A DNA stretch of 64,000 bases, from NCBI GenBank assembly GCA_003455995.1, contig DMPO01000006.1:38397-102396 (forward strand), in the 5' to 3' direction. Below the pieces are notes generated by a model, which was given only the letters and a program-made list of their open reading frames with translations, was not told where the DNA came from and made no database searches. Below, in pieces: positions 6,114 through 52,886 of the stretch. The translations under genes and the position numbers were made by a program. Origin of the DNA: Candidatus Azambacteria bacterium. Its GTDB lineage: Bacteria; Patescibacteriota; Minisyncoccia; UBA10092. Each line of letters starts with the position of its first letter. Position 1 is the stretch's first letter.

Positions 6114-6114
6114 T

Positions 6115-11035: not shown

Positions 11036-11050
11036 ACAAATTCGGCAAAA

Positions 11051-24798: not shown

Positions 24799-26043
24799 AT
24801 GATGAAAATCATCATCTTGTCGGATTATTTTGATAATCGCGGAGGAGCCGTCAGTATCGCTAAAACAATGGCTTACGGCTTCAAACAAATGGGCCATAAT
24901 GTCGGCGTGATTACTACAGTCCAAGACAAGGCGCTCGCGGGCCAAAAAATAATTGATGGAGTTAAAATATGGTCTGTTTATTCCAATTATAATCTTTTTT
25001 GGCGCGCTTATCGCAGTTTATACAATCCCCAGACCGTAAAACATATCGCGAAAATTATTGAAGAAATAAAACCGGATGTGGTTCACGCCAATAATATCCA
25101 TGTCCACCTTTCATACCACGCCCTGAAAATTGCCCAAAAAAGCGGGGCCAGAGTATTTTTGACCGCTCACGATGTCATGCCTTTTCATTATGGTAAATTG
25201 ACAGAATTTATAAACCCGAATAATTTATCCTGTCCCGAAAAATTCAATTACAAAATCAGCGTTTGGCGGCAAATAAAAAGAGCGGGCAAAACCTATAACC
25301 CTTTTCGTAATTTAATCATTAGATATTATCTTGAATATGTCGATAAAATTTTTGCCGTTAGCGGCGCGTTGAAAAACGCGCTTAATGACAATGGAATAAA
25401 AAATGTTGAAGTAATTCATAACGGCATTGATGTTTCGGCATGGGCAGTAAACGAAGCGGCCATAGAAGTTTTCAAAGAGAAGCATAATATTCGAAACAAA
25501 AAGGTTGTTTTGTTTGGCGGACGCCTTGGTTGGCTGAAAGGAGGGCGTGAAATTTGCTTGGCGATGAAAAAGGTGATTGAAACAATACCCAACGCGGTTC
25601 TTTTGCTTGCCGGAAAAATAGACGAAGAAGTTAAAGAAATTCTTGATTTTGCCGACAAACTGGGAATTAACAAAAATATTATTGCCGCCGGCTGGCTTTC
25701 GGGTGGCGAGCTTAAAGCCGCCTATAATGTCGCGGATATCGTGACGGCGCCGTCGATTTGTTTCGATTCTTTTCCGACCGTAAATTTGGAAGCGATGGCT
25801 TGCAAAAAGCCGGTTATCGCCACCTGTTTTGGCGGAAGCCGCGAAGCGGTAATAGACGGCGAAACCGGCTATATCGTAAATCCGTTTAACATAGATAAGT
25901 TAGCAGATAAAATAATATATCTATTAAAAAATTCTGAAGTTGCCAGAAAATTCGGCGAAGCGGGGTATGAGAGGGTGAAAAAAGAATTCAGTTCGGAAAA
26001 AATGATCGGTGATTATTTAAATTGGTACGGAAAAATTTTTTAA
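24799..26043 (+). CDS. GT4 family glycosyltransferase
   Basis: VVLFGGRLGWLKGG...NLEAMACKKPVIATCFGG signature. Confidence 0.7.
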   Translation: MMKIIILSDYFDNRGGAVSIAKTMAYGFKQMGHNVGVITTVQDKALAGQKIIDGVKIWSVYSNYNLFWRAYRSLYNPQTVKHIAKIIEEIKPDVVHANNIHVHLSYHALKIAQKSGARVFLTAHDVMPFHYGKLTEFINPNNLSCPEKFNYKISVWRQIKRAGKTYNPFRNLIIRYYLEYVDKIFAVSGALKNALNDNGIKNVEVIHNGIDVSAWAVNEAAIEVFKEKHNIRNKKVVLFGGRLGWLKGGREICLAMKKVIETIPNAVLLLAGKIDEEVKEILDFADKLGINKNIIAAGWLSGGELKAAYNVADIVTAPSICFDSFPTVNLEAMACKKPVIATCFGGSREAVIDGETGYIVNPFNIDKLADKIIYLLKNSEVARKFGEAGYERVKKEFSSEKMIGDYLNWYGKIF

Positions 26044-27416
26044 TGAAAACTATTTTTATTACCGCTTATCATCCTTTTATCTCCAAAAACATTCTTAATA
26101 CGAATGTGTTTGGCATTTTGAAACAAAGAAAAAATTTAAGAATCATTCTTTTAGTTCCGGTTATTTTGAAAGATTTTTTTGAAAACAATTACCGTTTCGA
26201 CAATGTAGTGATTGAGAGTATCGATCTGGCGCCATTCTCAAAATCCCGCCTCAGCAATTTTTTTTCAAGAGCCGCTTTCTTTTTTACTTACAATCACTGG
26301 ATTAGATATAAAAGGATGGAATATTTAAATGCCCATTGGAGTTTTTATAACCTCGTGAAATTTCGTGTTTTTATGGTATTAACGCGAATTTTATCTGGGC
26401 ATAAAATTTTAAATAAAATTTTCAGATTTTTTGACTGGCGTTATTCGCCCAATAATTTTTATAAAGATTATTTTGAAAAATACAAACCCGATATTGTTTT
26501 TTCAACCGATGTTTATGACGATTTTGACCAGGCGCTGATTAAAGAAGCGAAAATAAGAAAGATCTTTGTTATCGGCATGATCCGCTCCTGGGATAATAAT
26601 ATCAGTAAAGGACTAATGAGATGCTTTCCGGATAAATTAATTGTTAATAATGAGGTAATTAAGAAAGAGGCGATAAAACTTCATAATTATCCAGAAGGAA
26701 ATATTTTCATCGGCGGCCTGCCGCAGTTTGACGATTATCTTAAGGCGCCTTTCAAAAGCCGAGAAGAGTTTTTCGAGTCGGCGGGCGGAGATCCCGAAAA
26801 AAGAACGGTTTTATTTTCACCCGGCAGCCGGGGAATTTCCGCGGATGCCAATATTATTATTTGCGAAGCGTTTAAAGCCGCAAAGGAAAGTGGTGATTTG
26901 CCCAAAGATATTCAATTTTTTATCAGAAACCATCCCACCAGGCCAGATAGGGCGCTGGAAAAATTCAAAAATGATTCCGATTTTATTATCGAAATGCCAG
27001 GAAAAATTAAAAATAGCGGGAAATTTCTCGAATTTTCACTTCAAGACAATCGCCATCTTATAGATACCATATATTATTCCGATGTTGTCGTCTGGATTGT
27101 AACCTCGATAGGACTGGACTCTTTAGTTTTTGATAAGCCGCAAATCGTAGTTGATTTTGACGGCCTTGAAAATAAGTCATACTGGTTAAGCGTCAAGCGG
27201 TTCAATGACGAAGAACACATGCTTTTATTCTTTGAAACAGGAGCCGTAAAAATAGCCGATAATTTGGAAAATTTAATTGTTTATATTAAAGAATATCTTG
27301 AAAATCCCTCCATTGATCGCGAAGGAAGAAAAAAAGCCGCTTTGCAACAGCTTTGGAAGGCGGATGGAAAATCAAGCGAAAGAATCGCAAATTTCATTTT
27401 ATCATTCCTTTTTTAA
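26043..27416 (+). CDS. Putative CDP-glycerol glycerophosphotransferase-like protein (TagB/TagF family), uncertain
   Basis: 458 aa soluble protein. The C-terminal half has a FFIRNHPTRPD segment reminiscent of the Glyphos_transf conserved His-Pro region. Context includes a cytidylyltransferase and an OPA transporter. Start placed at the TAATG overlap at 26043. Confidence 0.35.
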   Translation: MKTIFITAYHPFISKNILNTNVFGILKQRKNLRIILLVPVILKDFFENNYRFDNVVIESIDLAPFSKSRLSNFFSRAAFFFTYNHWIRYKRMEYLNAHWSFYNLVKFRVFMVLTRILSGHKILNKIFRFFDWRYSPNNFYKDYFEKYKPDIVFSTDVYDDFDQALIKEAKIRKIFVIGMIRSWDNNISKGLMRCFPDKLIVNNEVIKKEAIKLHNYPEGNIFIGGLPQFDDYLKAPFKSREEFFESAGGDPEKRTVLFSPGSRGISADANIIICEAFKAAKESGDLPKDIQFFIRNHPTRPDRALEKFKNDSDFIIEMPGKIKNSGKFLEFSLQDNRHLIDTIYYSDVVVWIVTSIGLDSLVFDKPQIVVDFDGLENKSYWLSVKRFNDEEHMLLFFETGAVKIADNLENLIVYIKEYLENPSIDREGRKKAALQQLWKADGKSSERIANFILSFLF

Positions 27417-28131
27417 GCTGGCGGAATTTATTTTCCATTTTCTCCCAGTCGGAAGGAATGTTGATGTCTTCATCGTAAAAATCGCTGACAATATAGGGCT
27501 CTTGCTTCTCGCCGCCGAAATAGCAGGGATTTTTTCCGTACAAAATTTTTGGCTTCAAAACAAAAACCAGATCATTTTTGACATAATATTTTGGCAGGAG
27601 CTGGCGGCGCGCCGGAGCGTATTTTACATTCTGGCCTATGGCGTTTAACAGTTCATAACTGTTGCCCCTTTTTACAGGCTGGACAATCCAATAAGGATGA
27701 TGATGGGCGGCCGATAATTCGGAAAGAGGGATCACCACATCTGGGTCTTTTTTCAAAAACAGTTCTATCGCCTCGTCAACCTGTTTAACGTTTCTTAAAG
27801 AATTGGGAGGCATCAGCAAGACGATGGCGTCGGTTTTATAATTTTCATATTTTTTCAGCCATTCTATGGCGTGCCTTAACACCGGCTCCATTTGCGTCGC
27901 GCTCCCGGCTAATTTTTTGGGGCGCAAAAAGGGCGTTTCGGCGCCGTATTTTTTTGCCACTTTGGCTATTTCGGGGCTATCGGTGGAAACAATGGTCCGG
28001 TTTATAAGAGGGCTTTTCAGAGCCGTCTCAATAGCCCAGGCAATCAACGGTTTACCGCAGAAATTTCTTATATTTTTTCCGGGAACCCCTTTTGAATCGC
28101 CCCGGGCAGGCACAATCGCCACGATTTTCAT
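27394..28131 (-). CDS. Acylneuraminate-type cytidylyltransferase (CMP-nonulosonic acid synthetase, NeuA/PseF/LegF family)
   Basis: MKIVAIVPARGDSKGVPGKNIRNFCGKPLIAWAIETA is the canonical CTP_transf_3 N-terminus. Confidence 0.8.
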   Translation of the reverse strand: MKIVAIVPARGDSKGVPGKNIRNFCGKPLIAWAIETALKSPLINRTIVSTDSPEIAKVAKKYGAETPFLRPKKLAGSATQMEPVLRHAIEWLKKYENYKTDAIVLLMPPNSLRNVKQVDEAIELFLKKDPDVVIPLSELSAAHHHPYWIVQPVKRGNSYELLNAIGQNVKYAPARRQLLPKYYVKNDLVFVLKPKILYGKNPCYFGGEKQEPYIVSDFYDEDINIPSDWEKMENKFRQLKKGMIK

Positions 28132-28158
28132 AATTTATGAAATAACATAAAATTAAAA

Positions 28159-28187
28159 ATCCCGCAACGAACGCGGGATTGTTTTTT
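28159..28187 (-). terminator. Hairpin terminator between B12-rSAM gene and CMP-sugar synthetase gene
   Basis: ATCCCGC-AACGAAC-GCGGGAT stem-loop flanked by A/T runs on both strands. Confidence 0.6.
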
Positions 28188-29847
28188 ACATTTCCAAAAT
28201 TTTATATATGTCGCCAGAATCAATGTATCCTCTGGCCTTGACGAAAATATCATCCGGCATGTCGCTGTAATTCAGCGGCTCGCCGGTCTTGGAATTGCGC
28301 AAAACCTTTGTGGCGTCATCCAGCTCCAAAATATACCGGCGCAGGTTTTCATCGCAAACCGGCTCGCCGACAAAATCAAAAGTAATTCCGAAAACTTCAC
28401 GCAGAATTTTTTGAACCTTGGATTGGTGGCCCATTTCCGTTCCCGGATACCAGGTGGCGGTGAACATTTTCTTGTTTACCGAGTCGGCGGACTTGCCGCG
28501 CGTACCATAAAATATCTCTTGCCACTCGATAAAAGCGACGCTCATTTTTAGGTCCTCAAGGGTCTCGGTTGGGTATCCCATTATCCAGGTGCAATTAGCG
28601 TGAATGCCGGCATTTTCGCAATCTATAACGCCCTCTATCATAGAGCTGGGGAATTCGCAAAATTTTCCATTGGCAATAATACCCTTAATCCCTTTTTTGA
28701 GAATAAATCCGCCTTTATTCATCGCTTTCAGGACTTTCGGCGAGGCGCTTTCGGCGCCGAAGCCGATATAAATGCATCCGGCTTCCGCCATTAAATTAAA
28801 TCCCTTTGATTCATCGAGGCGCGCGTGCGTCCCCCAGCGGATATTTAGCGGCTTAAGAAGGGGGACTAAATCAATGATTCTTTTATGGTCGATGGCGAAA
28901 TTATCGTCCACCATCCCAATGAAATCAACTCCATATTTTTCAATATGCATTCTGAATTCCTTGGCAAGATTTTGCGCTGATCGCGCGCCGTAATTTTTTT
29001 CGCCTTGCGCGCCGCGATAGCAGAAAGCGCAATTATACGGACAGCCCCGCGAAGAAACAAAGTTCGTGCTCCGATTCATCGTGAATGAAGCCGCTGAACT
29101 GTTGTTGGCGGAAGCGCCCCAAATTGGATTGCAGATATAGTATTCCAGAATCTTATTGCCAAAAACATCTTCTTTTAGAAAATCCAAATCGGCGAAAGGA
29201 ATGCAGTCCAAATCCCGCGGTCGGTCGCCTTCGTAAACGAAGCGATGCCGGCCGAATATTTCTCCTTTGCCGACTATCGAACCCAAATAATAGGGTTCCA
29301 ATTTTCCGGAATTAATCGCCCGCAAAAAACCCGTTTTTTTGAGAATTCTCGCGTCGTGGGCGGCTTTGACGATTACATCGTCGCCTTCGGAACGGACTAT
29401 GCCGTCCAGGTCGGGGATGTAATTGAAAAGCCCCGCTCTCAATTCGGTGGCGAGGCCGCCGCCGGAAACAAGAAAAACGATCGGCGCCAATTTGCGAACC
29501 ATTTTAGCGACTTTTTCCTGCCAGCGCAATGTGGTGATCATTCCCGAAAGGCCGACCAGATCCGGCTCGCCATGAACTTCAAAATGTTTTTTTATCAGTT
29601 CAAAAACTTCCTGTTCGGTAAGGTGCCGGCCGTTTATTCGATAGCCGTTCAAATCAACTATCGAAACATTAACCTCATAGTTATCGCGCAAATTAGTTGC
29701 CAGAAGCAGGGGGCCTTGGGGCGTGTTGTTTGGCGCCGCCGCTTCTCTTAAAGGCATATTGATAAAAACAACATTTAAGCCGCGCAGATCGGCCGGTTTG
29801 ATATCTTTGATGATATCCGCCGGGTGAATATAATCGCAACTTTTCAT
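28186..29847 (-). CDS. B12-binding domain radical SAM enzyme (class B rSAM, putative methyltransferase)
   Basis: CPYNCAFCY is the CxxxCxxC radical SAM cluster motif. The N-terminal ~150 aa has the cobalamin-binding Rossmann-like layout. The GGAGGAG SD is visible on the minus strand. Confidence 0.8.
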   Translation of the reverse strand: MKSCDYIHPADIIKDIKPADLRGLNVVFINMPLREAAAPNNTPQGPLLLATNLRDNYEVNVSIVDLNGYRINGRHLTEQEVFELIKKHFEVHGEPDLVGLSGMITTLRWQEKVAKMVRKLAPIVFLVSGGGLATELRAGLFNYIPDLDGIVRSEGDDVIVKAAHDARILKKTGFLRAINSGKLEPYYLGSIVGKGEIFGRHRFVYEGDRPRDLDCIPFADLDFLKEDVFGNKILEYYICNPIWGASANNSSAASFTMNRSTNFVSSRGCPYNCAFCYRGAQGEKNYGARSAQNLAKEFRMHIEKYGVDFIGMVDDNFAIDHKRIIDLVPLLKPLNIRWGTHARLDESKGFNLMAEAGCIYIGFGAESASPKVLKAMNKGGFILKKGIKGIIANGKFCEFPSSMIEGVIDCENAGIHANCTWIMGYPTETLEDLKMSVAFIEWQEIFYGTRGKSADSVNKKMFTATWYPGTEMGHQSKVQKILREVFGITFDFVGEPVCDENLRRYILELDDATKVLRNSKTGEPLNYSDMPDDIFVKARGYIDSGDIYKILEM

Positions 29848-29983
29848 AACTCTCCTCCGTTTTATTGTTAGATGTCAAAGACCGCTTTAATTGACGGAAA
29901 CGGTATCATAAAATTAAATCTTTGACAAGGCGATTATTTTATGGTAATTTTCAGTGTCAAAATTTCCCGAACTTTAACAACAA

Positions 29984-30014
29984 CCACCCTTCGGGTGGCC
30001 ACCCGTAGGGGTGG
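29984..30014 (+). promoter_or_regulatory. Twin stem-loop 5' leader element (CCACCC-UUCG-GGUGG then CCACCC-GUAG-GGGUGG) immediately upstream of the SD
   Basis: Two consecutive near-identical hairpins, one with a UUCG tetraloop, end 6 nt before AGGAGG (30021-30026) and the ATG at 30033. Confidence 0.4.
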
Positions 30015-30032
30015 AAAATTAGGAGGTTAAAA

Positions 30033-30911
30033 ATGAAAAAAATTGGATTCATTGGGTTGGGGACTATGGGTTTGCGGATGGTGCAGAGATTGCTTTCCGC
30101 CGGGTATAAGCTGACGGTATATAACCGGACGGCGGAAAAAGCGAACGCGCTGGTGGATAACGGCGCGCGATTTGCCGTCAATCCGAGGCAACTCGCGGAG
30201 CGTTCCGATGTAATTATTACAATGGTCAGTGATGGTCGGGCTGTTCGCGATGTTGCCGAGGGCGTATGGGGGGCATTTTCAGTAGCACAGCGGGGAACGG
30301 TTTTTATTGACTGCAGTACCATTTCGGTCGGGACAACCAAATATCTCGCTTTGAGAGCGGAAAATTTGGGATGCTATTGGCTGGACGCGCCGGCGCTTGG
30401 AGGCCCAGCGGCGGCTGAAGCCGGAGAATTGTCGTTCGTCGTTGGCGGGCCAAAAAATATTCTAGATGAAAATATAGAGATTTTTAACGCCCTCGGCAGA
30501 GTTACTTGGATGGGGGAGTGCGGCATGGGCCAGGCGGCCAAAATTGTCCATAATATGGCCTGCGGCATATCGTTAGCGGCATTCAGCGAAGCGATTATTC
30601 TGGGCGAAAAACTTGGTCTGGAAAGAAAACAAACGATAGAGACGCTATTAAACGGCGCGGTTGGAAGTCCTTTATTAAAGGTGAAGGCGCCTAAATTTGA
30701 AGAAAATGATTTTGAACCCGCTTTTGCGTTAACTATGATGTTAAAGGATTTAACCTTGGCGGAAGACGCCGCCAAAGAATCGGAACTGTTTCTCCCGGCG
30801 CTTTCGGCGGTCAAAAAGCTCTACAATTTAGCGAGAATACGCGGATTTGGCGACGAGGACTCGTCGGCCGTTATTAAAGCGTTTCAATTTTTGACGGAGG
30901 TGAAGCGATGA
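30033..30911 (+). CDS. NAD(P)-dependent beta-hydroxyacid dehydrogenase (HIBADH/tartronate-semialdehyde reductase/6PGDH-like family)
   Basis: MKKIGFIGLGTMGLRMVQRLLSAGYKLTVYNRT is the classic dinucleotide-binding N-terminus of this family. Confidence 0.75.
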   Translation: MKKIGFIGLGTMGLRMVQRLLSAGYKLTVYNRTAEKANALVDNGARFAVNPRQLAERSDVIITMVSDGRAVRDVAEGVWGAFSVAQRGTVFIDCSTISVGTTKYLALRAENLGCYWLDAPALGGPAAAEAGELSFVVGGPKNILDENIEIFNALGRVTWMGECGMGQAAKIVHNMACGISLAAFSEAIILGEKLGLERKQTIETLLNGAVGSPLLKVKAPKFEENDFEPAFALTMMLKDLTLAEDAAKESELFLPALSAVKKLYNLARIRGFGDEDSSAVIKAFQFLTEVKR

Positions 30912-32836
30912 ATGGCGCGGTGATAAAGATTATCCCCCAGTCGGAATTTGTCCGCGTTTGGCAAACAGGCGCAAATTTTTACGCTACGCTCTCTTTGATT
31001 GCCGACATGTGCCGCCTGAACGCGCTTTCGGCGGTTAAACGCGCCGGTTCCGGCCATCTTGGTTCCAGTTTCAGCGCGATGGATATTGTAACATATCTTT
31101 ATTGGTGGGAGATGAATACGATTCGGAAGGGCTTTGATAATCCGAATCGCGATATCTATTTTTCGTCAAAGGGACACGATGTTCCGGGGTTATACGCCGC
31201 GCTTTTTTCGCTTGGTATAATTTCGGAGGAACTTTTTCTGAAACTGCGCCGTCTCGGCGGCCTTCACGGCCATCCGGATATAAACAATTTAGGTATTGAG
31301 GCCAATTCTGGGTCGTTGGGAATGGGAATTTCCAAGGGCCGCGGAATGGCTTGGGCTAAAGAATATTTGGGATTGTCCGGACGAGTTTTCGTGATGACCG
31401 GCGATGGTGAGTTCCAGGAAGGGCAGAATTACGAGGCGCTTCAGGGAGCGGCGCAGTTAATGCAGGATCGCTTAATTGTGGTTATGGACCACAACAAGGT
31501 CCAAAGCGATAAATTGGTCAAAGAAATAGTTGACTTGGGCGATCTTGAAGCGAAGTTCTCGTCATTCGGTTGGTATGTTGAGCGTTGCAACGGCCATGAT
31601 TTTAAGGCGCTTGAAAAAACTTTCGCCAGAATCGATAAAATTACACAAAAACCAAAAATAATAATTGCCAACACAATCAAGGGCAAGGGCGTTTCTTTTA
31701 TGGAACACCCATATGCTCTTAAAGAAAATGGCATATATAAATGGCACGCCGGAGCGCCGGATGACGATTCTTACAAGGTAGCGTTTAAAGAATTGTTTGA
31801 AAAAATTAACACGCGGCTTGCAAAACTATTTTTGGATTCAATCACTACCAAAGAGGTGTGTGATGAAAAAGAGCCGGTCAATCAGAAAAAAGTATCCGGC
31901 GAATATATTGCCGATTCTTACGGCAAGGCGCTTGTGGCATTGGCCGCCGAGCGGGACGATTTCGTGGTATTGGACGCCGATTTGGCGGCGGATTGCCGAT
32001 TGCGCGATTTTGAAAAACAATTTCCGGAACGGTTTATCGAATGCGGCATCGCCGAGCAGGATATGGTGTCCATGGCCGGCGGCTTGGCGCGGCAGGGGAT
32101 TCTCCCGATTGTAAATTCCTTTGGAGCGTTTCTGTCATCGCGCGCCAATGAGCAAATTTACACCAACGCTTGCGAACGGTCCAAGATTATCTATGTTTGC
32201 CATTATGCCGGCCTCATTCCGGCCGGACCGGGAAAATCGCATCAGTGTCTTCGGGATGTCTCATTGTTCGGCGCGTTGCCGGATATGACTATCATTCAGC
32301 CATGCAATGCATGGGAGACGCGGCAGGCGCTTAATTATTGCGTCAATTTTACGGCCAACAGTTCTATGTTGCGTCTCAATATTGGTCCTTCTCCGCGCGT
32401 AATTGAGTTGCTGGCAGAATATGCTTTCACAAAAGGCATAGGCGCTGAACTGACAAAAGGGGAAGACGCGATTCTTTTCGCGTATGGGCCGGTGATGCTC
32501 AATGAAGCGCTTGCCGCTTCGGAGATATTGGCGAAAAAAGGATTTGGATTAAAAGTTGTCAATATGCCGTGGCTGAATTCAGTGGATGTTGAATGGTTAA
32601 GAGCGGTTTTAGGTCCGACTAAAAAAATATTCGTACTGGAAGACCACAATATAATCGGCGGTTTAGGAGATTTTCTGTTAAATCAATTTGTCACCAATAA
32701 ACTTTTGGAAGGGAAGACGTTCCGAAAATTCGGGATAACCGGATTGCCGGCCTGCGGCCGACCTGATGAAGTATTGAAATTTCACGGCCTTGATGGCGCA
32801 ACGTTTGCGAAAAAATCCAACAATAAGGAGGAATGA
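30908..32836 (+). CDS. Transketolase-family ThDP enzyme, fused N- and C-terminal halves
   Basis: GSGHLGSSFSAMDIV, GHPD...NSGSLGMGISKGRGMAWA and TGDGEFQEGQNYEAL in the N-terminal half. FIECGIAEQDMVSMAGGLA in the C-terminal half. An insertion of about 50 aa lies between the halves. Confidence 0.75.
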   Translation: MNGAVIKIIPQSEFVRVWQTGANFYATLSLIADMCRLNALSAVKRAGSGHLGSSFSAMDIVTYLYWWEMNTIRKGFDNPNRDIYFSSKGHDVPGLYAALFSLGIISEELFLKLRRLGGLHGHPDINNLGIEANSGSLGMGISKGRGMAWAKEYLGLSGRVFVMTGDGEFQEGQNYEALQGAAQLMQDRLIVVMDHNKVQSDKLVKEIVDLGDLEAKFSSFGWYVERCNGHDFKALEKTFARIDKITQKPKIIIANTIKGKGVSFMEHPYALKENGIYKWHAGAPDDDSYKVAFKELFEKINTRLAKLFLDSITTKEVCDEKEPVNQKKVSGEYIADSYGKALVALAAERDDFVVLDADLAADCRLRDFEKQFPERFIECGIAEQDMVSMAGGLARQGILPIVNSFGAFLSSRANEQIYTNACERSKIIYVCHYAGLIPAGPGKSHQCLRDVSLFGALPDMTIIQPCNAWETRQALNYCVNFTANSSMLRLNIGPSPRVIELLAEYAFTKGIGAELTKGEDAILFAYGPVMLNEALAASEILAKKGFGLKVVNMPWLNSVDVEWLRAVLGPTKKIFVLEDHNIIGGLGDFLLNQFVTNKLLEGKTFRKFGITGLPACGRPDEVLKFHGLDGATFAKKSNNKEE

Positions 32837-32840
32837 AGAT

Positions 32841-33347
32841 ATGGATTTTGAGTTGCTTGAAAAATTGCGAAAAATAAAACTTTTGGTGCTTGATTGCGAC
32901 GGCGTTCTGACTGACAGCTATGTCTATGTGAACAATGATGGCAATGAATTTTGTCGGTTTAGCCATCGCGATGGCAAGGGGATTCAACTGATTCGGGAAG
33001 CGGGGATTGAAGTGGCGATAATAACAAGCCAGAAAAGCCCCTATGTTAAAAAAAGATGCGATAAGATGGGCGTTGAATTTCACCAAGCCATTACGAACAA
33101 ACTAAGAAATCTTGGTGATATGCTTGAAGACAAAAAGATGCGTTTTCAAGAAGTTTGTTTTGTCGGCGACGATGTTAGCGACATCGCGGTAATGAATAAT
33201 GTCGGTTTGCCCATAGCGGTAGCCGATGCCGAAGAAGAAGTAAAAAAAATCACCGCATATATTACTAAAAGAAAAGGCGGCGAGCACGCCGTTCGCGAAG
33301 TTTGCAATCTGATTTTGGAAGCAAGAAGGTGTCGTAATGAATTCTGA
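32841..33347 (+). CDS. HAD-superfamily phosphatase, KdsC family (KDO-8-P / nonulosonate-9-P phosphatase type)
   Basis: LVLDCDGVLTD (DxDGV motif I) and FVGDDVSDIAVM (motif IV), about 170 aa. AAGGAGG SD before the ATG at 32841. Confidence 0.75.
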   Translation: MDFELLEKLRKIKLLVLDCDGVLTDSYVYVNNDGNEFCRFSHRDGKGIQLIREAGIEVAIITSQKSPYVKKRCDKMGVEFHQAITNKLRNLGDMLEDKKMRFQEVCFVGDDVSDIAVMNNVGLPIAVADAEEEVKKITAYITKRKGGEHAVREVCNLILEARRCRNEF

Positions 33348-34155
33348 AGCGTATAAAATGTTCTCGGTAGAGAACAAAGTGATTGTCATTACCGGCGGCG
33401 CCGGATTTCTTGGGATGCAATTTGCCAAAGCGTTAGGTTTGGCCGGCGCCCAGATTGTGATTTGGGACAATTGTGATTTCAGTTTTCTGCAATCGCAAGC
33501 CGTCTTGTTGAGGCAAAAAAATATCAAGTGCATTGCCCAAGATGTTGATTTAACGGATATGGTAGTAGTTAACAAAATGGCAAATTCGGTTATTGAAAAA
33601 TTTGACCGCATTGATGTTCTTATCAACAACGCCGCGCTCAATCCGGCTGTTGACAGCGCCGAAGCCGAGCAAATGTTCTCGCCTTACGAAAAATATCCCG
33701 TTGATCTGTTCAAGAAGGAGGTAGAAGTGGATTTGATTGGAACGCATCTTTGCATTCAGGCGGCGGCGCCGCAAATGATAAAGCGAAGATCGGGGGTGAT
33801 TTTAAATATCTCCTCCGAATACGCCAATATTGCCGCCGACAATCGAATCTACGGCGAAGGTCAGTTCAAGTCCATCGCCTATATTGCCGCCAAAAGTGGA
33901 GTTCTCGGACTCACTCGAGGCTGGGCGTCTTATCTGGGAGAGTATGGCGTTCGCGTTAACGCTTTTACTCCCGGTGGCATGCCCAAGCCGGAAGTGTCGG
34001 AAGAATTCCGACGAAAATATTCTTCACTAAATATGCTGGGGCGGACGGCAAATCCCGGAGAATATGACGGCGCGATTTTGTTCTTGTGTTCCGACGCTTC
34101 CTCATTTATGACCGGCAATCAGCTTGTCATGGATGGCGGCAAAAGCGCATGGTGA
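33337..34155 (+). CDS. Short-chain dehydrogenase/reductase (classical SDR)
   Basis: VIVITGGAGFLG Rossmann motif, NNAA, YIAAK catalytic YxxxK. The exact start is uncertain between 33337 and 33358. Confidence 0.7.
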   Translation: MNSEAYKMFSVENKVIVITGGAGFLGMQFAKALGLAGAQIVIWDNCDFSFLQSQAVLLRQKNIKCIAQDVDLTDMVVVNKMANSVIEKFDRIDVLINNAALNPAVDSAEAEQMFSPYEKYPVDLFKKEVEVDLIGTHLCIQAAAPQMIKRRSGVILNISSEYANIAADNRIYGEGQFKSIAYIAAKSGVLGLTRGWASYLGEYGVRVNAFTPGGMPKPEVSEEFRRKYSSLNMLGRTANPGEYDGAILFLCSDASSFMTGNQLVMDGGKSAW

Positions 34156-34169
34156 GAGAAGGAGGGCAT

Positions 34170-35042
34170 ATGGTAAAAATAGAAAACATATTTGTCGGAG
34201 ACGACCACCCATGTTTTATAGTCGCCGAAATCGGAATCAATCATAATGGCAGTTTGGAAATTGCCAAAAAGATGATTGATTTGGCGGCCGAATCCGGCTG
34301 CGATGCCGTGAAATTTCAAAAACGGACGCCGGATTTATGCGTTCCCGACGAACAGAAAAATATGATGTACGAAACCCCTTGGGGGTTGATACCGTATATC
34401 GAATACCGGCATAAGATTGAATTCGGGCAGAAGGGATATGAACAAATTGATGATTATTGCCGGAGGAAAGGAATCATGTGGTTCGCTTCCTGTTGGGACG
34501 AAGATAGCGTCGATTTTATCGAAAAGTTCGATCCTCCTTGCTACAAAATCGGCTCGGCGTCTTTAACCGACAGAAATCTTTTGCTCCATACTCGGTTTAA
34601 AAACAAGCCCGTTATTCTTTCAACGGGGATGAGCACGATGGAGCAGGTTTATGGCGCAGTTGATACTTTGGGGAGAGAGGACTTAATCCTCTTGCACTGT
34701 GTCGGGACTTATCCCGTGCCCGATCATGAAAATAATTTGAGGGTTATCAATACCCTGCGGGAAACATTTCCGGAAGTGCCGATTGGATACAGCGGGCATT
34801 GCCGCGGCACCACTTTGGGCGTTTGCGCCGTCGCCTTGGGCGCTTGCGTAGTAGAGAGGCACATCACGCTTGACCGCGAAATGTGGGGGTCCAATCAGGC
34901 GGCAAGCTTGGGGCCGGAGGGACTTAAGCTGATGGTCGGCAACATCCGCCGGCTGGAACTCGCTTTAGGCGACGGAGTCAAGAGAGTTTTAGAATCGGAG
35001 GTTCCTCTGATTATGAAGCTCCGCCGAAAAGTTGATTTTTGA
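34170..35042 (+). CDS. N-acylneuraminate/nonulosonate synthase family protein (NeuB-like TIM barrel), lacking C-terminal SAF domain
   Basis: MVKIENIFVGDDHPCFIVAEIGINHNGSLEIAKKMIDLAAESGCDAVKFQKR is the hallmark NeuB N-terminus. GAAGGAGGG SD before the ATG at 34170. 291 aa, shorter than typical ~340-aa NeuB. Confidence 0.75.
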   Translation: MVKIENIFVGDDHPCFIVAEIGINHNGSLEIAKKMIDLAAESGCDAVKFQKRTPDLCVPDEQKNMMYETPWGLIPYIEYRHKIEFGQKGYEQIDDYCRRKGIMWFASCWDEDSVDFIEKFDPPCYKIGSASLTDRNLLLHTRFKNKPVILSTGMSTMEQVYGAVDTLGREDLILLHCVGTYPVPDHENNLRVINTLRETFPEVPIGYSGHCRGTTLGVCAVALGACVVERHITLDREMWGSNQAASLGPEGLKLMVGNIRRLELALGDGVKRVLESEVPLIMKLRRKVDF

Positions 35043-35091: not shown

Positions 35092-35115
35092 GCCCCGTTA
35101 ACTAACGGGGCTTTT
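35092..35115 (+). terminator. Rho-independent terminator (shared convergent-gene region)
   Basis: GCCCCGTTA-loop-TAACGGGGC followed by TTTT. Overlaps the stop codon of the minus-strand flippase gene. Confidence 0.65.
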
Positions 35116-36360
35116 GAATTTCCAAAGCGCGATGCTTATAAAAAATATGATGATATAATAAATCACCTGCGCCAGAACTAATCCCAAAATGCCGCCCCAA
35201 ATGCCGAGCGCCACATACAAAATTATTTTGACAATACTGGAAGAGATACTGCTTGACGCGATGGCTCCGAACATTTTTTGGGAGTTGATGGCCGTTCCGA
35301 TATAGCCCACCGGAGCGATGAAAATAAAAGATAATGCCAAAATTTGAGAATAGAAAATTGAGTCAATATATTTGGGCAATAAATATTTAAATACTAAAGG
35401 CGATACTAAAATATATCCGACGGCGAGAAGCGCTCCCAAACCGATTGCCTGAAATATTCTTTTGTAAAAAACTTCGTCTATCTCCTCGGTATTTTTAACG
35501 GCAAGCTTGGGCAGTCCGAGATTTATGATGCTTTTTATAAACGGCCCGACTTTATCCGGAATTGCTCGCGCCAGAGAATACACCGCCAATGGCGCCGGAC
35601 CCCAAAAATGAACAAGAACGATGCTATCGGTTTGCGCCACAATCGGGCCGATGAATCCCAAAAGCGTCAGCCGGCGGCCGTATTTGACGACATCTCCGGC
35701 CGGCGCCAACGGCGGATTAAAAATCTGCAGTGTTTTCCAATAAAAAAATATATTGGCAATCAGAGTAGTTAAAGCGTAGGCGATAATAAGCGGCAATATT
35801 TCCTTGCTTAACAGCGTTGCCAGCAACATTCCGGCGGCGTATATGGCGGTTGAAAAAATACTGAATAAATTATTGATTTTAAATTGTTTTTTGCCGTCAA
35901 GATACGCGCCGTAGGTATTGAACGCGAAAGTCAGGGGTGTAAATATGCCAAAAATAAGGAAAGAAATCGCAAGAATTTGATTATCGTTTAGAAAATAATA
36001 ACCTCCCAATCCCCACATAGCGATTGCCATCATAACATTCCATTTCAACTGGTATCTGACGGAAGTTCTTAACGCCCCTTCATTGCCGGTGGCCGTGGCT
36101 TGGCTGACCGCCGCGTTCATTCCGGTCATGGTAAAAACATTGAATATGCCCGCCAAAGACAAAATATAGCGGTAAAATCCGTAGGTTTCTTTCGGAAGCA
36201 AATTCGCGAAAGCGATTATCAAAAGGAAGGAAATCGAGCTATTCATTCCTTGTCCGAAAGCCGTCCAAAAACCGCCGCCGGCGAAATATTTTAAATCCAA
36301 GCCAAAAAATTCGGTGCCATAGTTTATGAATTTATGGTAAATTTCTTTTTTACTTTCCAT
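35098..36360 (-). CDS. Polysaccharide/O-antigen flippase (Wzx-like, MOP superfamily)
   Basis: 420 aa with about 12 TM helices. N-terminal pattern typical of Polysacc_synt proteins. Upstream of the initiating sugar transferase. Confidence 0.6.
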   Translation of the reverse strand: MESKKEIYHKFINYGTEFFGLDLKYFAGGGFWTAFGQGMNSSISFLLIIAFANLLPKETYGFYRYILSLAGIFNVFTMTGMNAAVSQATATGNEGALRTSVRYQLKWNVMMAIAMWGLGGYYFLNDNQILAISFLIFGIFTPLTFAFNTYGAYLDGKKQFKINNLFSIFSTAIYAAGMLLATLLSKEILPLIIAYALTTLIANIFFYWKTLQIFNPPLAPAGDVVKYGRRLTLLGFIGPIVAQTDSIVLVHFWGPAPLAVYSLARAIPDKVGPFIKSIINLGLPKLAVKNTEEIDEVFYKRIFQAIGLGALLAVGYILVSPLVFKYLLPKYIDSIFYSQILALSFIFIAPVGYIGTAINSQKMFGAIASSSISSSIVKIILYVALGIWGGILGLVLAQVIYYIIIFFISIALWKFKSPVS

Positions 36361-37690
36361 TGCCGGATAGTAAAATCTTGATGGTTTTTAGAATAATCGA
36401 AAAATCCAGAAATATTGAGCGATTTTTGAGATAATACAGATCATATTGAAGTTTCTCCATTGTTTCTTTGAAGGTTGGGCCGGCCTTAGGATTATGTAAT
36501 TGCGCCCAGCCGGCAATTCCCGGTTTTATCAAATGGCGCATTTCGTAGAAGGGGATTTCTTCCGATAGTTTTTCAACAAGTTCCGGCTTTTCGGGCCGAG
36601 GTCCGATAAATGACATCTGTCCCAATAAAATATTCCAGACCTGCGGCAGTTCATCTATGTGTGTTTTTCGCAAAAATCTGCCGACAAAAGTCATTTCTTC
36701 TTTCAAGGGCTTGCGCATTTCGTATTTGCCGCTCTTATCGCTGGATAGCGATCTGAATTTAGTTAGTGTAAATATCTTTCCGTTTTTTCCTACGCGGTGG
36801 CGTCTGAAAAAAATCGGTCCCGGATTGGAGATTTCTATGGCCAAAACAGCAAAAGGGAATATCAACAGCGCGATGGTTCCTAAAATAATTGAGCCGATAA
36901 TATCTATGATTCTCTTTACGATTTCGTAAAGATTTTTTTTGGATTGCCCGATATTTTCCAAAAACCACGCCTCCTGAATGATTGAAATTGGCACTCGGTC
37001 TGTTGTAAGTTCGTAAAACTTATCAAGGTCGTTAATAGCGGCGCCTTGCTTAAAATATCTGAAAAGCAAATAGGACAGTTTTTTTGAATGATCGAATTGT
37101 TCGGCCGAAATAATCAGTGAGAATCTTTTATCTCGCCAAAGGTTTTCCAGTTCGGAGGAATTATCAGGCGCCAAAATTCCGGCCACTCGATAGCCCAATT
37201 GCGGATTGTTGTTCAAAAATTCTTTCAACTCCAATATTTCCGGACTGGCGCCGATAAATACGACGCCGATCTTTAGCGCTTTTGTGGCCCACTTGTTAAA
37301 ATATTGCCTCCAATAATAAAGAATGGCCACGGTCAAAACTAGATCGATAAACAGATTTATTTTGGGCGTGATTATGAAATATGGTATAAAGTAGAAGAAG
37401 GAAATGGCGATTGCCGCGTTAACGCCGAATGTGATGATGAGATTTTTATAGAAGAATTCTTCATTCTTGAGTTTCAACAGATCATAGAGGCCGGCAGTCC
37501 AAAAAATAATTAGCCAAAAAGCGAATATTATGCTAAAAGGAACAAGATGAAGAGGGACAGAATTCAATAGCGTTGAAAAATCGCGTTCGATAACCGCATA
37601 TCGTATCAGAAGAGTCAACCCCAAGGCGACATAGAATATCACAAAGTCGCTAACAACAAGCAAAAATATCTTTAACCGTTTTCGCCACAT
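36350..37690 (-). CDS. Polyprenyl-phosphate sugar-1-phosphate transferase (WbaP/WcaJ-type initiating phosphoglycosyltransferase, Bac_transf domain)
   Basis: C-terminal PGPIFFRRHRVGKNGKIF...DELPQVWNILLGQMSFIGPRPE is diagnostic. N-terminal TM helices plus a central domain as in large PGTs. Confidence 0.8.
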   Translation of the reverse strand: MWRKRLKIFLLVVSDFVIFYVALGLTLLIRYAVIERDFSTLLNSVPLHLVPFSIIFAFWLIIFWTAGLYDLLKLKNEEFFYKNLIITFGVNAAIAISFFYFIPYFIITPKINLFIDLVLTVAILYYWRQYFNKWATKALKIGVVFIGASPEILELKEFLNNNPQLGYRVAGILAPDNSSELENLWRDKRFSLIISAEQFDHSKKLSYLLFRYFKQGAAINDLDKFYELTTDRVPISIIQEAWFLENIGQSKKNLYEIVKRIIDIIGSIILGTIALLIFPFAVLAIEISNPGPIFFRRHRVGKNGKIFTLTKFRSLSSDKSGKYEMRKPLKEEMTFVGRFLRKTHIDELPQVWNILLGQMSFIGPRPEKPELVEKLSEEIPFYEMRHLIKPGIAGWAQLHNPKAGPTFKETMEKLQYDLYYLKNRSIFLDFSIILKTIKILLSGNGK

Positions 37691-37718
37691 GGTTTAAGTG
37701 TAAAACTTAAAGCGAAAA

Positions 37719-39920
<2,202 letters not shown>

Positions 39921-52874: not shown

Positions 52875-52886
52875 ATAAAAATTATT

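What the first reader, a model, noticed from the sequence alone, without database searches (positions are those of the whole stretch)
28186..29847. B12-binding radical SAM enzyme embedded in the nonulosonate-like island
Class B rSAM enzymes typically catalyse C-methylation at unactivated carbons, for example GenK and Fom3 in sugar and phosphonate pathways. Here one lies divergently transcribed from the dehydrogenase-transketolase-phosphatase-SDR-NeuB operon and next to the CMP-sugar synthetase. This points to a radical-methylated sugar acid. A cobalamin-dependent enzyme is notable if the host is a reduced-genome organism lacking B12 synthesis, which is an inference.
Basis: partly seen in the sequence, partly recalled or inferred. 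Interest (0 to 1): 0.65.

Follow-up and report, generated by a model that had tools for sequence, protein, structure and literature searches.

The report
Radical SAM enzyme in sialic-acid-like pathway
The gene is real and belongs to an unstudied, highly conserved family of B12-type radical enzymes that almost always sits beside the genes that make and activate sialic-acid-like sugar acids, so it probably adds an undescribed radical step to that pathway, though which reaction is not yet known.

Summary
ORF 28186-29847 (-) encodes a 553-aa protein with an invariant CxxxCxxC motif (C269/C273/C276), a Pfam Radical_SAM match, and an N-terminal five-strand Rossmann domain. That domain matches the B12-binding model just below threshold (29.9 vs 32.1 bits). 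The predicted fold matches, over its full length, only class B radical SAM enzymes: AprD4, TsrM, CysS, MgmA, TokK and OxsB.

An identical protein is on record from a Parcubacteria (CPR) genome. The family has more than 1000 sequences, fits no curated subfamily, and carries only generic names.

The link to the sugar-acid genes holds widely. In 32 of 33 non-redundant ortholog loci with wide flanks, a NeuB-like synthase and/or a CMP-ulosonate cytidylyltransferase lies within 10 kb. The cytidylyltransferase is usually the next gene downstream. The family also occurs in DPANN archaea and in free-living bacteria, including cultured Roseibium.

The chemistry is unresolved. C-methylation is the single most likely reaction (about 0.4). 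An AprD4-like diol dehydration and other radical reactions remain open. Two positions that are hydrophobic in the radical methylases TokK and CysS are Thr and Arg/Lys here. Cobalamin binding and B12 supply could not be tested.

I found no paper linking radical SAM enzymes to ulosonic acid biosynthesis.

The parts
28186..29847 (-). Class-B-architecture radical SAM enzyme, 553 aa (the finding)
   Evidence: ORF. Pfam Radical_SAM 61.9 bits and B12-binding 29.9 bits. AF2 model pLDDT 86.5. Full-length fold matches only to class B rSAMs.
29335..29778 (-). N-terminal Rossmann-like (B12-binding-type) domain, residues about 24-171, five strands and five helices. Invariant loops: NMPLRE (30-35), DLNGYRI (65-71), SGMITTLRWQ (101-110), VSGGGLAT (127-134), SEGDD (153-157).
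   Evidence: Secondary structure of the model. Invariant columns. PF02310 matched in 25 of 26 members at E<=0.01. The N-domain profile's only real PDB sequence hit is the TokK cobalamin domain, E 9e-6.
29020..29043 (-). Radical SAM cluster motif C269-x3-C273-x2-C276 (RGCPYNCAFC)
   Evidence: Sequence. Invariant in 26 of 26. An intein sits immediately before the third Cys in homolog P0077.
28528..29073 (-). Radical SAM barrel core, residues about 259-440, including DDNF (314-317), WGTHARLDE (338-346) and GFGAESA (362-368). GFGAESA is read as the SAM-binding 'GGE'-type motif (inference).
   Evidence: Pfam match 265-439. Invariant columns.
28189..28527 (-). C-terminal mostly helical domain, residues 441-553, with invariant VNxxMFTATWYPGT and LDDATK motifs
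   Evidence: Model and alignment.
27394..28131 (-). CMP-ulosonate-type cytidylyltransferase (CTP_transf_3), the next gene downstream of the rSAM
   Evidence: Pfam 85 bits. PseF model 137 bits, below its 206 cutoff. Homolog within 10 kb in 40 of 50 non-redundant ortholog loci, same strand and downstream in 27.
28158..28180 (.). GC-rich hairpin between the rSAM stop and the cytidylyltransferase start; possible attenuator or terminator
   Evidence: Consensus scan only.
29848..30032 (.). Divergent intergenic region with a promoter-like site for the rSAM gene; no riboswitch detected
30033..30911 (+). HIBADH / tartronate-semialdehyde-reductase-like dehydrogenase (variable substrate-supply module)
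   Evidence: Found with the rSAM in only 1 of 54 other loci.
30908..32836 (+). Fused transketolase-like enzyme, a second copy beside the split housekeeping transketolase at 52026-53882
   Evidence: Found in 3 of 54 loci.
32790..33347 (+). KdsC/YrbI-family ulosonate-phosphate phosphatase
   Evidence: TIGR01670 154 bits, above its 107 cutoff. Found in 29 of 54 loci.
33337..34155 (+). Short-chain dehydrogenase/reductase
   Evidence: Found in 28 of 54 loci. All 16 loci with an AP_endonuc_2 gene also have an SDR, and Roseibium has none.
34086..35042 (+). NeuB-like PEP-condensing ulosonate synthase, short form with no SAF domain match. The true start is probably an ATG about 60-85 nt inside the listed ORF (inference).
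   Evidence: Pfam NeuB 258 bits. NeuB and PseI equivalog models both below cutoff. Found in 28 of 33 wide-flank loci.
26022..27416 (+). TagB/TagF-like transferase, candidate ulosonate transferase, convergent with the cytidylyltransferase gene
   Evidence: Glyphos_transf 45.5 bits. Weak BFO_1060-family match, 49 bits against a cutoff of 200. BFO_1060 is an ortholog of the Tannerella Pse/Leg transferase (PMC5420450). Homologs in 19 CPR loci.
35098..39920 (.). Glycan assembly genes next to the module: flippase (35098-36360, -), polyprenyl glycosylphosphotransferase (36350-37690, -), Wzy_C/O-antigen-ligase-like protein (37719-39920, +)

Best explanation
The gene encodes a tailoring enzyme of a CMP-activated ulosonic acid (sialic-acid-like or Kdo/KDN-like) pathway.

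Inferred pathway, from the families present:
1. The NeuB-like synthase condenses PEP with a sugar phosphate.
2. The KdsC-type phosphatase removes the terminal phosphate.
3. The radical SAM enzyme modifies an unactivated carbon of the sugar acid.
4. The co-located dedicated cytidylyltransferase activates the modified sugar.
5. A TagB-like transferase and the flippase/Wzy machinery place it on a surface glycan.

Proposed mechanism of the radical SAM step, entirely inferred. The [4Fe-4S] cluster on C269/C273/C276 cleaves SAM to a 5'-deoxyadenosyl radical. That radical abstracts a hydrogen from the sugar. Methylcobalamin held by the N-terminal Rossmann domain then delivers a methyl group. This gives a C-methylated or chain-extended ulosonic acid, by analogy with Fom3 on a CMP-linked substrate and GenK/GenD1 on sugars.

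Confidence by level:
- About 0.85 that it is a class-B-fold radical SAM enzyme working in this pathway.
- About 0.55-0.6 that it binds cobalamin.
- About 0.4 that the reaction is C-methylation.
For: Fold and motifs:
- Radical_SAM domain and invariant CxxxCxxC.
- Confident model with a 5-strand/5-helix Rossmann domain plus barrel.

Cobalamin domain:
- PF02310 matched in 25 of 26 members at E<=0.01.
- A 39%-identical homolog that shares the signature motifs scores 56 bits, above the cutoff.
- The N-domain profile's only real PDB sequence hit is the TokK cobalamin domain, and it does not hit AprD4.
- Many invariant residues lie in the conserved motifs that follow the predicted strands. That is where cobalamin binds in this fold (general knowledge).

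Pathway link:
- NeuB and/or cytidylyltransferase within 10 kb in 32 of 33 wide-flank loci, across CPR, DPANN and five other phyla.
- The cytidylyltransferase is within 250 bp in 17 loci.
- Polyangiaceae and Opitutia carry an isolated rSAM + cytidylyltransferase pair among housekeeping genes.
- Roseibium has a minimal cluster: NeuB, phosphatase, two methyltransferases, rSAM, cytidylyltransferase. No SDR or aminotransferase was found near it.

Precedents:
- Fom3 methylates a hydroxymethyl carbon of a CMP-linked substrate (PMC8158854).
- GenK and GenD1 C-methylate sugars (PMC5461906).
- CMP-linked C10 ulosonic acids in a +14 Da series exist in Magnetospirillum with no gene assigned (bioRxiv 10.64898/2026.04.20.719630).
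Against: - No curated methylase family is approached: PhpK 70 bits vs 600, KedN5 42 vs 700, rSAM_ocin_1 50.5 vs 282.
- TokK W76 (lower axial) aligns to invariant T105. TokK W215 and CysS W206 (between cobalamin and the cluster) align to R/K278, and OxsB has Arg there. The review PMC12931638 associates hydrophobic residues at these positions with radical methylation.
- The target's own B12-binding score is below Pfam's cutoff.
- No cobalamin uptake or salvage gene and no cobalamin riboswitch occurs in the 64 kb.
- No ortholog from Magnetospirillum appeared among the named top hits.
- The more distant homolog at 39% identity sits in an unrelated context.
Confidence: 0.4

Rival explanations
1. 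It is an AprD4-like, cobalamin-independent radical SAM 1,2-diol dehydratase. It would abstract a hydrogen next to a vicinal diol of the ulosonic acid side chain and eliminate water to give a keto-deoxy intermediate. A neighbouring SDR would reduce that intermediate, or an aminotransferase would aminate it. The product would be a deoxy or amino-deoxy ulosonic acid, for example a 9-deoxy terminus like that of pseudaminic and legionaminic acids.
For: - An SDR lies in the divergent operon here and in 28 of 54 loci. A class III aminotransferase lies 38 bp from the ortholog in L006 and occurs in 6 of 54 loci.
- The 'AGC' Cys358 before the GxGxES motif is shared with AprD4 in the pairwise alignment.
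- Independence from cobalamin would suit hosts with tiny genomes (inference).
Against: - The AprD4 family model scores 27.9 bits against a cutoff of 500.
- The N-terminal domain is far more conserved than a vestigial domain should be. At sequence level it matches PF02310 and the TokK cobalamin domain, not AprD4.
- All 16 loci with an AP_endonuc_2 gene also have an SDR, which fits an upstream role in substrate supply. Neither SDR nor aminotransferase was found in Roseibium, nor by similarity to the window's genes in the two-gene modules.
Confidence: 0.22
2. It is a class B radical SAM enzyme doing other chemistry on the ulosonic acid. Candidates are epimerisation at an unactivated carbon with a conserved Cys as hydrogen donor, oxidation to a ketone, or an OxsB-like skeletal rearrangement in which cobalamin acts as an electron sink rather than a methyl carrier.
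For: - Polar or basic residues (T105, R/K278) sit where the radical methylases TokK and CysS have Trp, and OxsB has Arg at the second position (PMC12931638).
- Two extra conserved cysteines on barrel strands (C358, C419) are also kept in the 39% homolog. They could donate a hydrogen atom (inference).
- OxsB and AprD4 show that this fold is not restricted to methyl transfer.
- Clusters often carry separate class I and TylF-type methyltransferases.
Against: - There is no positive evidence for any particular one of these reactions.
- Most characterised class B enzymes are methylases (general knowledge; PMC8158854).
- The residue arguments rest on alignments at 15-19% identity.
Confidence: 0.28
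3. The gene only happens to lie in glycan islands and acts on something else, such as a lipid, a peptide or a nucleotide.
For: - One ortholog (L018, Planctomycetota) has neither NeuB nor a cytidylyltransferase within 10 kb.
- The 39% homolog L052 sits among rho, prfA and prmC next to an FAD oxidoreductase.
- The window as a whole is a mosaic of glycan genes.
Against: - 32 of 33 wide-flank loci from very distant lineages keep the link. It persists when everything else in the neighbourhood changes, down to an isolated rSAM + cytidylyltransferase pair.
- NeuB and CTP_transf_3 genes are few per genome, so chance cannot give this (inference).
Confidence: 0.07

Closest known systems
Fom3 (class B radical SAM methyltransferase, fosfomycin pathway)
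   Same: B12-domain plus radical SAM architecture class. Fom3 acts on a CMP-linked substrate made by a pathway cytidylyltransferase and methylates an sp3 hydroxymethyl carbon (PMC8158854). Here the gene is paired with a cytidylyltransferase in most loci.
   Different: The substrate class would be an ulosonic acid, not a phosphonate. No PEP mutase or other phosphonate gene is among the annotated ORFs of the window. The order of cytidylylation and radical chemistry is unknown.
GenK / GenD1 (class B radical SAM sugar C-methyltransferases, gentamicin)
   Same: Class B enzymes that C-methylate unactivated carbons of sugars (PMC5461906).
   Different: They act on aminoglycoside pseudo-oligosaccharides in actinomycete secondary metabolism. 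No family model was available to test membership. This family belongs to surface-glycan clusters of CPR, DPANN and several other phyla.
AprD4 (radical SAM 1,2-diol dehydratase, PDB 6FD2) with its reductase AprD3
   Different: 18% identity. The AprD4 family model scores 27.9 bits against 500. AprD4 does not bind cobalamin and its Rossmann-like domain is only remotely related (PMC12931638). Here the N-domain is highly conserved and resembles PF02310 and TokK.
TokK / CysS / TsrM / MgmA(QCMT) / OxsB (structurally solved class I B12-radical SAM enzymes)
   Different: 14-20% identity. TokK W76 aligns to Thr, and TokK W215 / CysS W206 align to Arg/Lys. Substrates and pathways are unrelated.
KDN / Neu5Ac-9-P type ulosonate pathways (NeuB-family synthase + HAD phosphatase + CMP synthetase, e.g. 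Bacteroides KDN)
   Same: NeuB domain, YrbI/KdsC-family phosphatase (passes TIGR01670) and CTP_transf_3 cytidylyltransferase are all present.
   Different: None of the equivalog models (NeuB, PseI, PseF, KdsC, KDN-9-P phosphatase) reaches its cutoff. The NeuB-like protein has no SAF domain match. As far as I know, and as far as the literature searches show, known pathways of this type contain no radical SAM enzyme.

Membership tests
Radical SAM superfamily | CxxxCxxC motif that ligates the [4Fe-4S] cluster | tested here: met
   C269, C273 and C276 are invariant in 26 of 26 homologs.
Radical SAM superfamily | Match to PF04055 above the gathering score, and a partial TIM-barrel fold | tested here: met
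   61.9 bits against 29.5. The barrel aligns to biotin synthase, HydE, PylB and others.
Radical SAM superfamily | Reductive cleavage of SAM to 5'-deoxyadenosine | not testable with these tools
   Needs an anaerobic enzyme assay.
Class B (cobalamin-dependent) radical SAM enzymes, structural class I | N-terminal Rossmann-type domain of five strands and five helices before the radical SAM barrel | tested here: met
   Model elements E24-29, H43-56, E59-64, H77-91, E96-100, H103-119, E124-128, H131-142, E148-151, H155-171. Definition taken from PMC12931638.
Class B (cobalamin-dependent) radical SAM enzymes, structural class I | Match to the Pfam B12-binding domain PF02310 at the gathering score | tested here: inconclusive
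   The target scores 29.9 bits against 32.1. 25 of 26 members match at E<=0.01. A 39% homolog with the same motifs scores 56.2 bits.
Class B (cobalamin-dependent) radical SAM enzymes, structural class I | Full-length structural similarity to solved members | tested here: met
Class B (cobalamin-dependent) radical SAM enzymes, structural class I | Actual binding of cobalamin (base-off) | not testable with these tools
   No conserved ligand residue exists in this class (PMC12931638). AprD4 shows the fold can lack cobalamin. Spectroscopy or a co-folded or solved structure is needed.
Class B radical C-methyltransferases (TokK/CysS/GenK/Fom3 type) | Membership of a curated methylase family model | tested here: not met
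   Bits against cutoff: PhpK 69.8 vs 600; Sden_1168 64.5 vs 575; rSAM_ocin_1 50.5 vs 282; KedN5 42 vs 700; MCR glutamine methylase 23 vs 360.
Class B radical C-methyltransferases (TokK/CysS/GenK/Fom3 type) | Hydrophobic residue under the corrin (TokK W76) and between the corrin and the cluster (TokK W215) | tested here: not met
   HMMER alignments place invariant T105 and R/K278 at these positions. The alignments are at low identity, and the rule rests on few structures (PMC12931638).
Class B radical C-methyltransferases (TokK/CysS/GenK/Fom3 type) | Methyl transfer with SAH formed alongside 5'-deoxyadenosine | not testable with these tools
   Needs an enzyme assay.
AprD4-family radical SAM diol dehydratases | Match to NF033070 at its cutoff | tested here: not met
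   27.9 bits against 500.
AprD4-family radical SAM diol dehydratases | Dedicated reductase partner encoded with the enzyme | tested here: inconclusive
   An SDR is present here and in 28 of 54 loci. It was not found in Roseibium, nor by similarity to the window's SDR in the two-gene modules. All 16 AP_endonuc_2 loci also carry an SDR.
Nonulosonic / ulosonic acid biosynthesis cluster | NeuB-family PEP-condensing synthase | tested here: met
   PF03102 258 bits. The NeuB_NnaB (256 vs 400) and PseI (211 vs 340) equivalogs are not met, and there is no SAF domain match.
Nonulosonic / ulosonic acid biosynthesis cluster | CMP-ulosonate cytidylyltransferase (NeuA/KdsB/PseF type) | tested here: met
   PF02348 85 bits. 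The PseF equivalog (137 vs 206) is not met.
Nonulosonic / ulosonic acid biosynthesis cluster | Ulosonate-phosphate phosphatase (for the sugar-phosphate route) | tested here: met
   TIGR01670 YrbI family, 154 bits against 107.
Nonulosonic / ulosonic acid biosynthesis cluster | Identity of the sugar acid produced | not testable with these tools
   The substrate-supply genes differ between loci: transketolase + HIBADH, AP_endonuc_2 + SDR, or SIS. Carbon number and substituents cannot be deduced.

The most novel reading that the evidence does not exclude
This family is a missing enzyme that builds extended or branched carbon skeletons in sialic-acid-like sugars. In this reading a B12-dependent radical methylation of the terminal hydroxymethyl (or another unactivated carbon) of a Kdo/KDN-type acid yields 9-deoxy-nonulosonate-like or C10 'higher-carbon' CMP-ulosonic acids. 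CPR bacteria and DPANN archaea would then have a short route, independent of UDP-GlcNAc, to sialic-acid-like surface sugars that depends on cobalamin scavenged from hosts or neighbours.
Probability: 0.25. Interest if true: 0.8.

Novelty: new variant of a known kind. Interest (0 to 1): 0.62.

Why it matters
Ulosonic acids (sialic, pseudaminic and legionaminic acids, Kdo, KDN) are key surface sugars for recognition, immune evasion, phage and host attachment. As far as I know, and as far as the literature searches here show, their described biosynthesis contains no radical SAM step.

A family with more than 1000 sequences is locked to these genes across CPR bacteria, DPANN archaea and several free-living phyla. 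This predicts a new tailoring reaction and therefore new sugar structures. It would also put a specific name on proteins now annotated only as 'radical SAM protein'.

The family occurs in cultured Roseibium strains, so the prediction can be tested directly by knockout plus CMP-sugar profiling and by in vitro assay. If the enzyme is truly cobalamin-dependent, it would also mark a specific vitamin dependence of episymbiotic ultra-small microbes for building their surface glycans.

Tried and rejected
- Subfamily assignment: NCBIfam gave only weak partial hits for the target, for nine more distant class B relatives from the profile search (four of them partial matches at 260-360 bits), and for the second rSAM in the window. 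No subfamily could be assigned.
- The JGI name 'YgiQ (UPF0313)' attached to homologs is a generic COG label. No YgiQ model matched, so I rejected it.
- Foldseek against afdb50 was not available.
- A cobalamin or SAM riboswitch upstream would have been telling. Rfam found nothing in the window or in the intergenic region.
- Literature searches linking radical SAM with nonulosonic acid, NeuB or flagellin glycosylation found no relevant paper.
- Magnetospirillum, which makes C10 CMP-ulosonates, did not appear among the named top hits when I searched with the alphaproteobacterial ortholog. That link stays an untested lead.
- I considered the SDR as a dedicated AprD3-like partner of the rSAM. I rejected it as a universal partner: every AP_endonuc_2 locus also has an SDR, and Roseibium has none.
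- I considered the second B12-rSAM of the window (44804-46333) as a conserved partner. The second rSAMs near orthologs in other loci are only 21-27% identical to it, so they are not orthologs.
- The taxonomy look-up of the source organism failed on the name format.
- Model coordinates are not exposed, so I could not inspect the cobalamin pocket directly.
Full report
OBSERVATION

The ORF reported at 28186-29847 exists exactly as stated, on the minus strand, and encodes 553 residues. It starts at ATG 29847, preceded by GGAGGAG 5 nt upstream. A promoter-like TTGACA-16-AATAAT lies at 29960..29933 in the 185-bp divergent intergenic region.

Pfam finds a Radical_SAM domain (61.9 bits, cutoff 29.5, residues 265-439). 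It also finds a B12-binding domain (29.9 bits, cutoff 32.1, residues 48-160), which is just below threshold. The cluster motif is C269-x3-C273-x2-C276 (RGCPYNCAFC).

- A CTP_transf_3 cytidylyltransferase (27394-28131) lies 54 bp downstream on the same strand.
- A divergent plus-strand operon encodes an HIBADH-like dehydrogenase, a fused transketolase-like enzyme, a KdsC/YrbI-family phosphatase (passes TIGR01670), an SDR and a NeuB-like synthase (30033-35042).

An identical protein is on record as a hypothetical protein of Parcubacteria group bacterium GW2011_GWC1_43_61.

WHAT THE PROTEIN IS

No curated NCBIfam family is approached. The best scores are about 70 bits against cutoffs of 575-750, and they cover only the radical SAM core.

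I aligned the target with 25 homologs and predicted its structure with AlphaFold2. The model is confident: pLDDT 86.5, pTM 0.88. It shows three parts:
- an N-terminal domain of five strands and five helices (residues about 24-171);
- the radical SAM barrel;
- a helical C-terminal domain.

IS THE N-TERMINAL DOMAIN A COBALAMIN DOMAIN?

Alignment of 'binding residues' cannot settle this. These enzymes bind cobalamin base-off with no protein ligand. AprD4 has a related domain but binds no cobalamin (PMC12931638).

Evidence in favour:
- PF02310 is matched in 25 of 26 family members at E<=0.01.
- A 39%-identical homolog (L052) shares the signature motifs and scores 56 bits, above the cutoff.
- A profile of the N-domain alone has one real sequence hit in the PDB, the cobalamin domain of TokK (E 9e-6), and does not hit AprD4.
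- The domain is extremely conserved. Its invariant motifs follow the predicted strands: NMPLRE, DLNGYRI, SGMITTLRWQ, VSGGGLAT, SEGDD.

Evidence against or neutral:
- The target's own score is sub-threshold.
- The window contains no cobalamin uptake or salvage gene and no riboswitch.

I put cobalamin binding at about 0.55-0.6.

THE FAMILY

More than 1000 homologs exist. They stay at 50-80% identity across Azambacteria, Yanofskybacteria, Sungiibacteriota and other CPR groups, and a Nanoarchaeota (DPANN) genome.

A profile search of 1.84 billion representative proteins finds only 84 representatives at E<=1e-30. Of these, roughly two dozen (including fragments) score above 300 bits. Below them come a handful of 430-475-aa partial matches (260-360 bits), and the scores then fall into generic class B proteins. 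The family is therefore compact and well separated.

It is not confined to reduced genomes. Orthologs at 48-55% identity occur in:
- Roseibium, including the cultured R. hamelinense ATCC BAA-252, R. litorale and strain TrichSKD4;
- genomes labelled Polyangiaceae, Planctomycetota, Nitrospirae, Opitutia and Sphingomonadales, and Acidobacteriota and Deltaproteobacteria.

All source names are generic.

Six look-ups of encoding contigs all showed NeuB, CTP_transf_3 and an SDR around the gene.

I then fetched 79 loci from species-representative genomes. I searched their flanks with the window's proteins and a few proteins from related loci. Among 50 non-redundant ortholog loci:
- a cytidylyltransferase homolog is present in 40, and a NeuB homolog in 35;
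- among the 33 loci with wide flanks on both sides, 29 have the cytidylyltransferase, 28 have NeuB, and 32 have at least one;
- the cytidylyltransferase lies on the same strand downstream in 27 of the 40, and within 250 bp in 17.

The KdsC-like phosphatase occurs in 29 of 54 loci. The remaining genes vary in blocks:
- transketolase in 3 loci and the HIBADH-like gene in 1, as in the window;
- AP_endonuc_2 in 16 loci, each of which also has an SDR;
- SIS isomerase in 10.

These look like alternative substrate-supply modules (inference).

Roseibium has a minimal cluster: NeuB, HAD phosphatase, class I methyltransferase, TylF-type methyltransferase, rSAM, cytidylyltransferase, then a TPR protein. 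No SDR or aminotransferase was found near it. In a Polyangiaceae genome and an Opitutia genome, the rSAM and a cytidylyltransferase form an isolated two-gene unit among housekeeping genes.

There are exceptions. A Planctomycetota ortholog stands alone next to a hemC-hemD fusion. The more distant 39% homolog L052 lies among rho, prfA and prmC.

In the window and in 19 CPR loci, a TagB-like transferase follows, convergently. It matches weakly the BFO_1060 family, whose Tannerella members transfer pseudaminic and legionaminic acid derivatives (PMC5420450). It is a plausible ulosonate transferase (inference).

HOW IT MOST LIKELY WORKS

Shown here:
- radical SAM motif and fold;
- class B architecture;
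- conserved pairing with ulosonate synthesis and activation genes.

Inferred pathway:
1. The NeuB-like enzyme condenses PEP with a sugar phosphate.
2. The phosphatase removes the terminal phosphate.
3. The rSAM modifies an unactivated carbon.
4. The paired cytidylyltransferase activates the modified acid. A dedicated cytidylyltransferase next to the rSAM, even in Gram-negative genomes that should already have KdsB, suggests the rSAM acts before activation. The Fom3-like order, acting on the CMP ester, is equally possible.

The reaction itself is open.

Points favouring C-methylation:
- Methyl transfer dominates among characterised class B enzymes.
- Fom3 methylates a hydroxymethyl carbon of a CMP-linked substrate (PMC8158854).
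- GenK and GenD1 methylate sugars (PMC5461906).
- The minimal clusters lack a reductase.
- CMP-linked C10 ulosonic acids in a +14 Da series have been reported in Magnetospirillum with no gene assigned (bioRxiv 10.64898/2026.04.20.719630).

Points against C-methylation:
- The residue under the corrin in TokK (W76) aligns to invariant T105.
- The Trp between corrin and cluster in TokK and CysS aligns to R/K278, as in OxsB. The review associates hydrophobic residues at these sites with radical methylation.

Other radical chemistry (epimerisation, oxidation, OxsB-like rearrangement) cannot be excluded. Two further cysteines (C358, C419) are conserved even in the 39% homolog.

My weights:
- C-methylation about 0.4
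- other class B chemistry about 0.28
- dehydration about 0.22
- unrelated to the pathway about 0.07

COMPARISON WITH KNOWN SYSTEMS AND NOVELTY

The protein works like, and folds like, a class B radical SAM enzyme. It is not a member of any curated subfamily: every one tested fell far below its cutoff.

The surrounding genes resemble the KDN / Neu5Ac-9-phosphate type of ulosonate pathway. None of the equivalog models is met, however, and the NeuB-like protein has no SAF domain match.

Three full-text searches found no paper connecting radical SAM enzymes with nonulosonic or ulosonic acid biosynthesis.

I therefore rate it a new variant of a known kind: a known enzyme architecture recruited to a pathway where no radical step has been described.

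- B12 supply cannot be judged from this window.
- One survey lists cobalamin among the few vitamin pathways not missing from most Patescibacteria MAGs (PMC8672522).
- The family also occurs in large free-living genomes.

Cultured Roseibium carriers make the prediction directly testable.

Noticed in passing
window 44804-46333 (-): A second B12-binding radical SAM ORF (509 aa): B12-binding 45.7 bits, above the cutoff, and Radical_SAM 63.1 bits. It follows an NTP_transferase and a NUDIX gene. It is only 23% identical to the target and fits no curated family. Several ortholog loci also carry a second, non-orthologous class B rSAM close by (L003, L007, L023, L025, L030).
   Followed up: partly
proteins P0077 (913 aa) and P0103 (919 aa), homologs of the target: Both homologs carry a LAGLIDADG-type intein domain. 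In P0077 the intein is inserted immediately before the third cysteine of the CxxxCxxC cluster motif, so the radical SAM site is completed only after protein splicing. The P0103 insertion point was not checked.
   Followed up: partly
window 26022-27416 (+): A TagB/TagF-like transferase with a weak match to the BFO_1060 family, whose Tannerella members transfer Pse/Leg derivatives. It is convergent with the cytidylyltransferase gene. Homologs lie near the rSAM in 19 CPR loci. It is a candidate ulosonate transferase.
   Followed up: partly
window 30908-32836 versus 52026-53882: There are two transketolases: a fused 642-aa copy inside the ulosonate module, and a split housekeeping pair next to GAPDH and aldolase. 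GC content is uneven: the ulosonate module is 42-50% and the second rSAM 51%, against 31-36% for the split transketolase, aldolase and PBP genes (window mean 39%). This may reflect lateral acquisition of the modules.
   Followed up: partly
window 34086-35042 (+): The NeuB-like synthase is a short form. Only the NeuB domain is matched, with no SAF/antifreeze-like C-terminal domain, and both the NeuB and PseI equivalog models fall below cutoff. Homologs in related loci are mostly 291-295 aa.
   Followed up: partly
window 4884-9072 (+): A separate deoxy-sugar module: an NDP-hexose C-methyltransferase (Methyltransf_13/14 domains), a 4,6-dehydratase-like protein, an epimerase-like protein and an RmlD-like reductase. 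The window thus also encodes a conventional SAM-dependent sugar C-methylation route.
   Followed up: no
L001 10152-11555 (Sungiibacteriota CP066690.1): A reverse transcriptase (RVT_1) and a bAvd accessory gene, the hallmarks of a diversity-generating retroelement, lie directly downstream of the rSAM ortholog.
   Followed up: no
L016 (Polyangiaceae) 9704-12532; L031 (Opitutia) 9995-12453: The rSAM ortholog and a CTP_transf_3 gene form an isolated two-gene unit among housekeeping genes (RF3, fatty acid desaturase, DHFR, ornithine/DAP decarboxylase). No NeuB lies within 10 kb.
   Followed up: partly
L018 5252-11664 (Planctomycetota): A solitary rSAM ortholog with no ulosonate genes nearby. It lies downstream of a fused porphobilinogen deaminase / uroporphyrinogen-III synthase (tetrapyrrole precursor genes) and a PAS histidine kinase.
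   Followed up: no
L003 5056-11731 (Nanoarchaeota): The cytidylyltransferase is fused to a TylF-type O-methyltransferase (545 aa). The rSAM ortholog is followed directly by a 669-aa second B12-type radical SAM protein.
   Followed up: no
L042 12503-14371 (Roseibium): A 622-aa protein rich in TPR repeats lies next to the cytidylyltransferase. TPR-bearing FlmG-type enzymes glycosylate flagellins with ulosonic acids in Alphaproteobacteria (from the abstract of bioRxiv 10.1101/2022.03.25.485807, listed). The Roseibium sugar may therefore decorate flagellin (speculative).
   Followed up: no
window 1403-2584, 14525-16213, 22085-23395, 56125-56850, 58850-59515: Five sizeable ORFs (221-562 aa) have no Pfam match. 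Three of them lie inside the glycan island.
   Followed up: no
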